Positions 1,242-1,433 of a DNA stretch of 36,507 bases are shown here, piece after piece. The position numbers and the translations under genes were made by a program. Source of the stretch: a virus (Duplodnaviria; Heunggongvirae; Uroviricota; Caudoviricetes); IMG/VR virus record IMGVR_UViG_2563366882_000002, one strand, 5' to 3'. How positions within the stretch are numbered: position 1 is the first letter of the stretch; each line of letters opens with the position of its first letter. The notes beneath the pieces were generated by a model. The model saw only the letters and a list, made by a program, of their open reading frames with translations. It did no database searches and was not told the DNA's origin.

Positions 1242-1433
1242 TTATCGTGAGTTTTTAGTACAGATTTTTTTGGATTTACTAATAGTTCCATCATTGCAAA
1301 CGAATTTGCCATCAGAGGTACAGTGAGAAACACCTCCCTTTTTCCCTGAGCAGGGATAATTTCTAGCATAGGTAGCTAGTGGGTTTAATAACAAAGAACA
1401 TGACAAAACCACAAAAAATACCTTACCAAGCAT
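1242..1433 (-). CDS. small secreted Cys-rich protein, moron candidate
   Basis: 63 aa; N-terminal signal-peptide-like stretch ([23 protein letters not shown]) then a 4-Cys mature part; GGGAGG RBS 5 nt upstream; begins 16 bp after cI stop; AT-rich. Confidence 0.5.

What the first reader, a model, noticed from the sequence alone, without database searches (positions are those of the whole stretch)
1242..1433. Small secreted Cys-rich protein co-transcribed with the repressor
A 63-aa ORF with a signal-peptide-like N-terminus and four cysteines starts 16 bp after cI with a strong RBS, between cI and int where P2 has no gene. Its position predicts expression in the lysogen, typical of lysogenic-conversion morons (periplasmic factor, small toxin or immunity-like protein).
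Basis: partly seen in the sequence, partly recalled or inferred. Interest (0 to 1): 0.5.

Follow-up and report, generated by a model that had tools for sequence, protein, structure and literature searches.

The report
Periplasmic YdcA mini-protein behind prophage repressor
A real, strongly conserved 63-codon gene directly after the repressor gene of a 186-like E. coli prophage encodes a tiny, very basic, disulfide-locked periplasmic protein of the uncharacterised YdcA family; it recurs in this slot in many prophages and probably acts at the cell envelope in lysogens, but its function is untested.

Summary
The ORF is real, on the minus strand at 1242-1433. It starts 15 nt after the cI stop codon, behind a GGAGG Shine-Dalgarno sequence. 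It encodes a signal peptide and a 40-aa mature peptide (pI 9.7, net +7, four Cys). It is a YdcA-family protein (NCBIfam NF007463 above cut-off; Pfam PF27300), identical to a RefSeq protein found in about 11% of complete E. coli genomes. Purifying selection is strong: 20 synonymous versus 2 non-synonymous differences in the core against a 67%-identical relative.

Phages 186 and P2 have no gene between repressor and int. YdcA genes do sit directly downstream of the repressor in 186-like prophages of five enterobacterial genera, in Haemophilus HP2/S2 (unannotated, ATG overlapping the cI stop) and in betaproteobacterial P2-like prophages. In relatives the same slot holds defence genes (PD-Lambda-1, PDC-S20) and, in Vibrio K139, the periplasmic exclusion protein Glo.

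Two leads appear undescribed. The domain is probably homologous to each lobe of Legionella T4SS subunit Dis2. In longer family members it is fused to three unrelated nuclease families.

Best reading: a lysogen-expressed periplasmic accessory protein, probably an envelope-level exclusion factor against incoming DNA. The function is inferred, not shown.

The parts
1242..1433 (-). ydcA-like ORF, 63 codons plus stop; YdcA family (PF27300 / NF007463 / phrog_6000)
   Evidence: identical to cluster representative P0001 and annotated in RefSeq as 'YdcA family protein' WP_001513672.1
1365..1433 (-). predicted Sec signal peptide (residues 1-23, [23 protein letters not shown]), SPase I site after Ala23
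   Evidence: hydrophobicity and -3/-1 rule; variable N-terminus with near-invariant Ala23 in alignment A1; no SignalP available, so inferred
1245..1364 (-). mature peptide, 40 aa, 4.3 kDa, pI 9.7, net +7; core [32 protein letters not shown] with four Cys (two predicted disulfides)
   Evidence: AF2 pLDDT about 90 in the core; Dis2 homology
1439..1443 (-). Shine-Dalgarno GGAGG, 5 nt upstream of the ATG, within the 15-nt cI-ORF spacer (1434-1448)
1449..2024 (-). cI repressor, 186 type (PF07022 + PF16452), first gene of the leftward lysogenic operon
1055..1083 (-). 13-bp hairpin (AAAAAUGCUCUCU-AUU-GGAGGGCAUUUUU) plus U-tract ending 1 nt before the int ATG; contains the int SD (1067-1063); terminator-like and RBS-sequestering, probable 3' boundary or gate of the cI-ydcA transcript
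   Evidence: equivalent hairpins with different stem sequences before int in L084, L108 and L104
1..1053 (-). tyrosine integrase (350 aa as annotated in RefSeq), 188 nt downstream of the ORF
2025..2143 (.). cI/apl intergenic switch region (pR-like promoter on + strand at 2043-2071; pL expected nearby by analogy with 186, not located)

Best explanation
The ORF is a functional accessory gene inserted in the repressor-integrase slot of the leftward lysogenic operon of a 186-like prophage. Shown or strongly supported: it is a YdcA-family protein under strong purifying selection, placed 15 nt behind cI with a strong SD and no intervening terminator, and the same order (repressor, then YdcA) recurs in many independent prophage lineages. 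Inferred: it is transcribed with cI from pL in lysogens, and from the cII-activated establishment promoter, as in 186. The transcript ends or is gated at the hairpin plus U-tract just before int. The precursor is Sec-exported, cut after Ala23 and oxidised to two disulfides, giving a 40-aa, +7 periplasmic mini-protein. Most likely mode of action (inferred, about 35-40% on its own): it works close to the outer membrane as an exclusion factor against DNA entering through the envelope (superinfecting phage, possibly conjugative or transforming DNA). It would do so by binding either the nucleic acid or an outer-membrane-proximal part of a translocation machine, as the non-homologous periplasmic Glo protein encoded in the same slot of Vibrio phage K139 is reported to do.
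For: Family membership: NF007463 114.6 bits against a cut-off of 93, PF27300 'YdcA' on the identical protein, phrog_6000. Selection: window versus P0013 core, 22 of 96 nt differ, 20 synonymous and 2 non-synonymous. Operon structure: spacer and SD, no minus-strand terminator between cI and the ORF. Recurrent repressor-then-YdcA order: E. coli (2 types), Klebsiella, Hafnia, Yersinia, Enterobacter; Haemophilus HP2/S2 with TAATG stop/start overlap; H. parainfluenzae and 9 betaproteobacterial loci behind a CI-HTH/S24 repressor. About 597 of 648 E. coli genomes with this cI type carry the ORF. The slot is empty in 186 and P2. In relatives it holds PD-Lambda-1 (E=3e-120) and PDC-S20, a PifA-like KAP NTPase (E=1e-171), and glo in K139, annotated 'periplasmic protein; involved in phage exclusion'. 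A cI-int defence hotspot is described in PMC9122126 and an int-primase hotspot in PMC13586616. Envelope and DNA leads: profile versus PDB hits Legionella Dis2 at E=4e-5, with Foldseek prob 0.97 (whole-protein model) and TMq 0.62 (mature-domain model). Dis2 lies under the outer membrane in a T4SS, bound to DotC, DotD and DotK, with all Cys in disulfides (PMC8486379, PMC12716638). YdcA domains are fused to SNase, Endonuclease_NS and PLD nucleases. The mature peptide is +7. HP2's next gene is Sie-like, and exported or lipoprotein genes are co-cargo in Hafnia and Comamonas.
Confidence: 0.45

Rival explanations
1. Host-fitness (lysogenic conversion) factor for envelope or stress physiology. The prophage supplies an extra copy of a general periplasmic YdcA function, such as tolerance to acid, organic acid or stationary-phase stress, with no role in excluding foreign DNA.
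For: Most family members are chromosomal stand-alone genes. The E. coli W ydcA deletion is sensitive to 3-hydroxypropionate, and ydcA is reported to be acid/YdcI-regulated (PMC7642389). An RpoS promoter peak lies at rydC/ydcA (PMC5493296). ydcA is up-regulated in persister-stage cultures. The K-12 YdcA core is 25/32 identical to the window protein.
Against: This does not explain the tight and repeated linkage to phage repressors of two architectures. It does not explain co-cargo with defence or Sie-like genes, or the presence of YdcA on 4-kb MOBQ plasmids and among Moraxella phage structural genes. It also does not explain the nuclease fusions. The phenotypes reported for K-12 ydcA are weak and indirect.
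Confidence: 0.2
2. Phage-centred role in the lysogeny module. Translation of the ORF, or the peptide itself, serves to set int expression (translational coupling, spacing, mRNA stability) or otherwise supports establishment of lysogeny, rather than changing host phenotype.
For: In Hafnia and Enterobacter prophages the YdcA stop is 2 nt from the int ATG. The int leader carries a conserved RBS-sequestering hairpin. The ORF is always co-oriented between cI and int.
Against: In the window 188 nt and a terminator-like hairpin separate the ORF from int. Protein-level conservation is strong and extends to chromosomal, plasmid and structural-module copies with no int nearby. An exported peptide cannot act on cytoplasmic int or cI. 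Phage 186 functions without it.
Confidence: 0.08
3. Small cationic disulfide peptide acting as a toxin or bacteriocin-like antimicrobial (or its immunity).
For: The 40-aa, +7, two-disulfide architecture resembles defensin-like peptides. One YdcA-family gene was flagged among genes specific to antimicrobial-positive Pseudomonas protegens strains (PMC13541209).
Against: A Sec signal peptide delivers the protein only to the periplasm. No export, processing or immunity genes are adjacent in any context examined. The gene is stably carried as a single chromosomal gene in many species. The Pseudomonas association is correlative, and its authors call the function poorly characterised.
Confidence: 0.05
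4. Spurious or decaying ORF with no function.
For: The ORF is short. Older RefSeq annotations call it 'hypothetical protein', and the HP2/S2 GenBank records do not annotate it.
Against: Curated HMM hits are above cut-off. There are 455 family clusters at E<=0.001. Synonymous sites are saturated at 97% core protein identity. The ORF is full-length by DNA coverage (at least 80%) in 593 of 597 E. coli genomes that carry it; intactness of the reading frame was not checked. It has a strong SD.
Confidence: 0.01

Closest known systems
E. coli K-12 YdcA (b1419) and the YdcA family (Pfam PF27300; NCBIfam PRK10040 models NF007462-4; phrog_6000)
   Same: Same family. Both have a signal peptide and a core of about 35 aa, PCSG-K-GG-x-HC...[14 protein letters not shown], with four Cys. 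The core is 25/32 identical to K-12 YdcA. The window protein scores above the curated cut-off of equivalog NF007463.
   Different: It is not the K-12 equivalog: NF007462 scores 68.5 bits against a cut-off of 118. K-12 ydcA is a stand-alone chromosomal gene next to rydC, whereas this copy is prophage cargo behind cI. No member of the family has an established function (PMC11340327, PMC7642389).
Glo of Vibrio cholerae phage K139 (periplasmic protein involved in phage exclusion)
   Same: Same genomic logic: a small exported protein encoded between cI and int in the PL lysogenic operon of a P2-related phage. This is the best functional analogue.
   Different: There is no sequence relationship (hhalign probability 1.4%, only the signal peptides align). 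Glo is 137 aa. Exclusion by the window protein is untested.
[quoted passage not shown]
   Same: Probable homology of the domain. Profile E=4e-5 against all PDB sequences, 36-39% identity over 38-39 aligned columns, and top Foldseek hit (prob 0.97 with the whole-protein model; TMq 0.62 with the mature-domain model). Both have a signal peptide, are Cys-rich and disulfide-locked, and are periplasmic (PMC8486379).
   Different: Dis2 has two tandem lobes with five disulfides and is a stoichiometric T4SS subunit contacting DotC, DotD and DotK. The window protein is a single lobe in a prophage with no T4SS context. The literature regards Dis2 as Legionella-specific with no structural relatives (PMC8486379, PMC12716638), so the link appears undescribed in the papers consulted here. 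It rests on modest statistics.
Prophage- or phage-encoded envelope exclusion lipoproteins (Cor of phi80/N15, Llp of T5) and entry-exclusion proteins such as TrbK of RP4 (from general knowledge, not tested here)
   Same: They are small, exported proteins encoded by mobile elements that block DNA entry at the envelope.
   Different: Those are lipoproteins or membrane proteins of unrelated sequence. Here the only lipobox-like string (LSC, Cys12) sits too early in the protein and is not conserved in the family.
Accessory defence cargo of P2-like phage hotspots (Rousset et al. 2022, PMC9122126; PMC13586616)
   Same: It occupies a variable slot that holds PD-Lambda-1 or PDC-S20 in close relatives. 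A cI-integrase hotspot is described for K139-like Vibrio phages, and an integrase-primase hotspot holds 8% of P2 defence systems.
   Different: YdcA matches no PADLOC model. It is tiny and exported, whereas known hotspot systems are cytoplasmic enzymes. It also co-exists with such systems (cI-YdcA-PDC-S20-int) instead of alternating with them.

Membership tests
YdcA family (PF27300 / NCBIfam NF007463) | Score above the curated cut-off of the family HMM | tested here: met
   NF007463: 114.6 bits against a cut-off of 93, E=1.3e-33, residues 5-63 on profile positions 1-58 of 58. Precomputed PF27300 on the identical protein P0001. The local Pfam copy predates PF27300 and gives no hit.
YdcA family (PF27300 / NCBIfam NF007463) | Signal peptide followed by the four-Cys core motif PCSG..GG..C...F.C.DG..S.SK..C | tested here: met
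   Alignments A1 to A3: C28, C38, C46 and S52 are invariant; P27, S29, K32, G33, G34, F44, D48, G49, S54, K55 and C58 are at least 90% conserved.
YdcA family, K-12 YdcA equivalog (NF007462) | Score above the equivalog cut-off (118 bits) | tested here: not met
   68.5 bits: same family, different subfamily.
Sec/SPase I-exported periplasmic protein | n-, h- and c-regions with small residues at -3 and -1 | tested here: inconclusive
   Lys4, hydrophobic residues 5-16, T-Y-A|R; the pattern is conserved across the family. No SignalP or LipoP tool was available, and there is no experimental export data.
Bacterial lipoprotein (Cor/Llp/Bor-like conversion proteins) | Lipobox [LVI][ASTVI][GAS]C at the end of a signal peptide of about 15-25 aa, conserved in relatives | tested here: not met
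   V-L-S-C ends at Cys12, too early, and the Cys is not conserved in homologues, whereas the Ala23 site is.
Dis2-like T4SS outer-membrane-cap subunits | Sequence and structural homology of the lobe domain | tested here: met
   [not shown]
Dis2-like T4SS outer-membrane-cap subunits | Two tandem lobes and association with a Dot/Icm T4SS | tested here: not met
   There is a single lobe, and the neighbours are phage cI and int. Tandem 2-3-repeat relatives exist elsewhere (P0080-P0083).
Superinfection-exclusion protein of the K139 Glo type | Homology to Glo | tested here: not met
   hhalign probability 1.4%.
Superinfection-exclusion protein of the K139 Glo type | Exported protein encoded between cI and int in the lysogenic operon | tested here: met
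Superinfection-exclusion protein of the K139 Glo type | Reduces infection by superinfecting phage | not testable with these tools
   Requires plating or adsorption assays with deletion and expression strains.
Known anti-phage defence systems (PADLOC-DB v2) | Match to any defence-system HMM | tested here: not met
   0 families at E<=0.01, while neighbours in the same slot in relatives match PD-Lambda-1 and PDC-S20.
Moron / accessory gene | Absent from close relatives and located in a variable slot | tested here: met
   Absent in 186, in P2 and in all enterobacterial phages of the INPHARED phage collection. Slot content varies.
Moron / accessory gene | Own promoter and terminator (classical moron definition) | tested here: not met
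   There is no minus-strand promoter-like site between cI and the ORF. The ORF appears to use the cI transcript. A terminator-like hairpin follows, but it belongs to the int leader.

The most novel reading that the evidence does not exclude
The YdcA domain is a previously unrecognised, widespread periplasmic module that binds DNA or the outer-membrane-proximal part of DNA-translocating machines. It has been recruited three ways: as the lobes of the T4SS subunit Dis2, as the N-terminal targeting domain of at least three families of periplasmic nucleases, and as a stand-alone peptide of about 40 aa that temperate phages of the P2/186/HP1 group co-express with their repressor as a new class of envelope-level exclusion (anti-superinfection or anti-HGT) factor.
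Probability: 0.25. Interest if true: 0.7.

Novelty: new member of a known kind. Interest (0 to 1): 0.45.

Why it matters
About one complete E. coli genome in nine (597 of 5,426) carries this exact gene behind a prophage repressor. Equivalents sit behind repressors in Klebsiella, Yersinia, Enterobacter, Hafnia, Haemophilus and Comamonas prophages. No member of the family has a known function, and the gene is not even annotated in the classical HP2/S2 records.

If it is an exclusion factor, it would add a very small periplasmic player to the mostly cytoplasmic defence genes described in P2-like hotspots. It would also be easy to test, because BL21(DE3) already carries it.

Independently, the probable homology to Dis2 removes the 'Legionella-specific, no relatives' label from a T4SS subunit. 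Together with the nuclease fusions, it gives the first handle on what the YdcA fold might do.

Tried and rejected
- Local Pfam-A: no significant hit for the ORF, because the copy predates PF27300.
- PADLOC: no hit for YdcA.
- Glo-YdcA homology: rejected.
- One conserved partner gene next to YdcA: rejected. Neighbours differ (KAP NTPase, exported orf143, Sie-like orf1(S), lipoprotein, nothing). Only within Moraxellaceae do the downstream TM-anchored proteins show weak similarity to each other.
- Lipoprotein reading: rejected.
- An RNA element instead of a gene: Rfam has nothing in 1-3000, and the + strand holds only short ORFs and a chance-level terminator-like site at 1343-1356.
- Expression evidence: literature searches for the RefSeq accessions, PF27300, PRK10040 and BL21 prophage small proteins found nothing useful.
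- 'Conjugal transfer protein' labels in UniRef: no supporting evidence was found. A possible source is the position of a homologue next to a small traD-like gene on 4-kb MOBQ Acinetobacter plasmids, but this was not traced. I treat them as annotation noise.
- LDL-receptor/Notch-like similarity: PDB hits at E 0.06-1, not significant.
- pL in the window: not located. The minus-strand scan found no site reaching threshold upstream of cI.
- The broad alignment A2 could not be used for the genome scan. A1 was used instead, which biases the sample toward close relatives.

Full report
**1. The observation**

The window begins with a leftward tyrosine integrase (1-1053, minus strand). Next come a 188-nt spacer and a 63-codon ORF (1242-1433, minus strand). 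After a 15-nt spacer lies a 186-type CI repressor (1449-2024, minus strand; PF07022 + PF16452). Then come the divergent apl-like and cII (CP76) genes. The ORF reads [63 protein letters not shown]. On the coding strand the junction is ...TAG TACCGGGAGGAAATT ATG, that is, a GGAGG Shine-Dalgarno sequence 5 nt before the ATG.

The ORF is on the minus strand. The spacer is 15 nt. The precursor has five Cys, of which four lie in the mature part.

**2. It is a real gene**

- It scores above the curated cut-off of NCBIfam equivalog NF007463 (114.6 bits against 93).
- It matches phrog_6000 at E=3e-34.
- It is identical to a protein cluster seen on at least 1,000 contigs that carries Pfam PF27300, named 'YdcA'.
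- RefSeq calls it 'YdcA family protein' WP_001513672.1.

Selection is clear. Against the 67%-identical E. coli relative P0013, the 96-nt core differs at 22 positions. Of these, 20 are synonymous and 2 non-synonymous, so synonymous sites are saturated (pS 0.96) while the core protein is 97% identical.

In complete E. coli genomes, 648 carry this cI type and 597 carry the ORF. In 593 of the 597 the match covers at least 80% of the ORF. This measures DNA coverage; whether the reading frame is intact was not checked.

**3. What the protein looks like**

Family alignments show a variable hydrophobic N-terminus ending in a near-invariant Ala (T-Y-A|R here). After it comes an extremely conserved core, [13 protein letters not shown]4[16 protein letters not shown], with four invariant or near-invariant Cys.

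The predicted mature peptide has 40 aa, 4.3 kDa, pI 9.7 and net charge about +7. Relatives range from +5 to +9.

A lipobox-like VLSC ends at Cys12. That is too early, and it is not conserved, so SPase I cleavage is the better reading (inference; no SignalP was available).

AlphaFold models give pLDDT of about 90 for the core, which is a small beta-hairpin-containing knot.

**4. Genomic logic**

Phage 186 has cI abutting int, and its annotated lysogenic operon is pL -> cI -> int -> orf69 -> terminator. The cII-activated pE reads the same way. P2 has a 115-nt gap between C and int with no gene. No sequenced enterobacterial phage in the INPHARED phage collection carries a YdcA gene. The ORF is therefore accessory.

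The same order recurs widely:

| Lineage | Arrangement |
|---|---|
| E. coli (second type) and Klebsiella | cI - YdcA - KAP NTPase - int |
| Hafnia | cI - exported orf143 - YdcA - int, spacers of 2-3 nt |
| Yersinia, Enterobacter | cI - YdcA - int (2 nt before int in Enterobacter) |
| Haemophilus HP2/S2 | intact but unannotated 58-aa YdcA ORF whose ATG overlaps the cI stop (TAATG), followed by exported orf1(S), which hits a 'Sie-like' PHROG |

I also sampled one genome per species. In 16 of 79 informative loci YdcA lies directly downstream of a phage repressor on the same strand. Seven follow a 186-type CI. Nine betaproteobacterial loci follow a CI-HTH/S24 repressor, with an Ogr/Delta gene nearby in six of them. 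One example is Comamonas: repressor -> lipoprotein -> long-form YdcA with a 4-nt overlap.

The remaining roughly 80% are stand-alone genes in varied chromosomal contexts, including the K-12-type ydcA next to rydC/trg. Other homologues occur on 4-kb MOBQ Acinetobacter plasmids next to a small traD-like gene, and among the structural genes of Moraxella phages.

**5. The slot is a cargo and defence hotspot**

In phage 813R9 the gene between cI and int is PD-Lambda-1 (E=3e-120); its int is 97% identical in DNA to the window's. In the P0013-type prophages the gene after YdcA is PDC-S20, a PifA-like KAP NTPase (E=1e-171). Phage 4LV2017 has a 349-aa protein of unknown function.

Rousset et al. described a cI-integrase defence hotspot in K139-like Vibrio phages (PMC9122126). 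A 2026 survey assigns 8% of P2 defence systems to the integrase-primase interval (PMC13586616).

In K139 itself the PL operon is cI - orf2 - glo - int, and Glo is annotated 'periplasmic protein; involved in phage exclusion' (also PMC4870250). Glo is not homologous to YdcA. It is, however, the closest functional analogue by position and cellular compartment.

**6. Clues to what the domain does**

(a) The only solved relative is Dis2 (Lpg0823) of the Legionella Dot/Icm T4SS outer-membrane cap.
- The profile search gives E=4.6e-5 and 3.8e-5, with two repeats detected in Dis2.
- It is the Foldseek top hit at 36-39% identity: prob 0.97 with the whole-protein model, and prob 0.77 with TMq 0.62 for the mature domain.
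- Dis2 is described as two similar lobes pinned by five disulfides, close to the outer membrane. It contacts the lipoproteins DotC, DotD and DotK, was said to have no structural relatives, and its deletion gives only subtle phenotypes (PMC8486379, PMC12716638).
- Tandem two- and three-repeat YdcA proteins exist elsewhere (P0080-P0083).

(b) The family comprises 455 clusters at 50% identity with E<=0.001. In its longer members, a signal peptide plus YdcA domain is fused to three unrelated nuclease folds:
- SNase (P0122)
- Endonuclease_NS (P0170, P0211, P0216)
- PLD/Nuc-like (P0208)

Others carry a C-terminal 'PBCV basic adaptor' motif.

Periplasmic nucleases encoded by mobile elements that destroy incoming DNA are an established strategy, for example IdeA, SxnA and Dns (PMC12378983).

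Together with the high positive charge, these fusions point to a periplasmic role connected with nucleic acid, or with positioning proteins beneath the outer membrane.

**7. Proposed mechanism**

Shown:
- the gene and its family;
- purifying selection;
- operon-like spacing and conserved synteny;
- accessory status;
- defence-type neighbours in relatives.

Inferred:
- co-transcription with cI from pL or pE;
- export, cleavage after Ala23, and two disulfides;
- action as an envelope-level exclusion factor.

I give about 0.85 to 'lysogen-expressed exported accessory protein' and about 0.35-0.4 to exclusion of incoming DNA as its function. The figure for the combined statement is 0.45.

The main rival is a general stress or fitness role (0.2). 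It is supported by the predominance of chromosomal copies and by the weak K-12 data: 3-HP sensitivity of the deletion, an RpoS promoter peak, and up-regulation in persister-stage cultures.

**8. A regulatory detail that bears on the operon**

The 188-nt spacer is strongly structured (z=-5.3). A 13-bp hairpin (1083-1055) plus a U-tract ends 1 nt before the int ATG and contains the int SD.

Hairpins in the same position, with different and partly compensatory stem sequences, precede int in other lineages whatever the cargo. This element could terminate the cI-cargo transcript, gate int translation, or both. If so, the lysogenic mRNA here would be essentially cI-ydcA. This is untested.

**9. Novelty and verdict**

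The gene is already annotated, and its family is named but uncharacterised. Periplasmic exclusion proteins in the cI-int slot (Glo) and defence hotspots in P2-like phages are both known. It is therefore a new member of a known kind.

Three points I did not find in the literature searched here:
- the systematic linkage of YdcA genes to phage repressors across Gamma- and Betaproteobacteria;
- the probable YdcA-Dis2 homology;
- the nuclease fusions.

Interest is moderate at 0.45. The gene is common, conserved, easy to test and of unknown function, but nothing here contradicts current understanding.

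Noticed in passing
window 1055-1083 (minus strand), with the promoter-like TTGACA at 1106-1101: A 13-bp hairpin plus U-tract ends 1 nt before the int start codon and contains the int Shine-Dalgarno sequence. Equivalent hairpins with different, partly compensatory stems precede int in L084, L108 and L104, downstream of different cargo genes. It looks like a conserved terminator or translational gate for int. The whole spacer 1040-1260 folds with z=-5.3.
   Followed up: partly
[not shown]
   Followed up: yes
PDB 7MUC/7MUD chain AN (Legionella Dis2, Lpg0823) versus alignments A1/A2: Dis2 is described in the literature as Legionella-specific with no structural relatives. It appears to consist of two YdcA-like repeats (profile E about 4e-5). 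Two- and three-repeat YdcA proteins (P0080-P0083) exist in other bacteria.
   Followed up: partly
P0122, P0170, P0211, P0216, P0208 (family members): A signal peptide plus YdcA domain is fused to SNase, Endonuclease_NS or PLD-type nuclease domains. Forms of about 105-120 aa (P0056-P0062, L161, L183) add a C-terminal CxGPRGGxYC 'PBCV basic adaptor'-like motif.
   Followed up: partly
window 33730-33808 (minus strand): An intact host RybB sRNA gene (Rfam RF00110, 105 bits) lies near the right end. In BL21(DE3) the int side of the related prophage abuts rcdA. The prophage therefore sits between rcdA and rybB, and its attachment site probably involves the 3' end of rybB.
   Followed up: no
window 1453-1481 (+ strand): A near-consensus sigma-70 promoter-like site (TTAACA-17-TATAAT, 11 of 12) points rightward, antisense into the 3' end of cI. 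It could be chance in AT-rich DNA or an antisense promoter.
   Followed up: no
L104 (phage vB_EcoM-813R9) 1791-3467; L084/L108 5198-6529 / 4198-5529: In close relatives the cI-int slot carries PD-Lambda-1 (annotated there as 'chromosome segregation ATPase') or the candidate system PDC-S20 (a PifA-like KAP NTPase). This marks cI-int as a defence hotspot in 186-like enterobacterial prophages.
   Followed up: partly
L101/L102 (Acinetobacter 3.9-4.1 kb MOBQ plasmids), L094 (Moraxella bovoculi chromosome), L003 (Moraxella phage Mcat17): In Moraxellaceae the YdcA gene is followed by a protein with an N-terminal TM anchor (150-243 aa). These proteins are weakly related to each other across plasmid, chromosome and phage, which suggests a mobile two-gene module. 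On the plasmids it lies next to a small traD-like gene.
   Followed up: partly
L107 (E. coli BL21(DE3) chromosome 875000-875191): BL21(DE3) carries a defective P2/186-like prophage remnant (truncated cII and replication genes) that retains int, the 63-aa YdcA ORF and cI. This makes it a convenient strain for expression and phenotype tests.
   Followed up: no
L117 (contig JAEWTL010000113.1, labelled 'MAG: Bacillota bacterium'): A 3-kb contig with cI-YdcA-int, whose YdcA is 98% identical in protein to the window's, is assigned to a Bacillota MAG. This is most likely a binning contaminant from Enterobacteriaceae.
   Followed up: no
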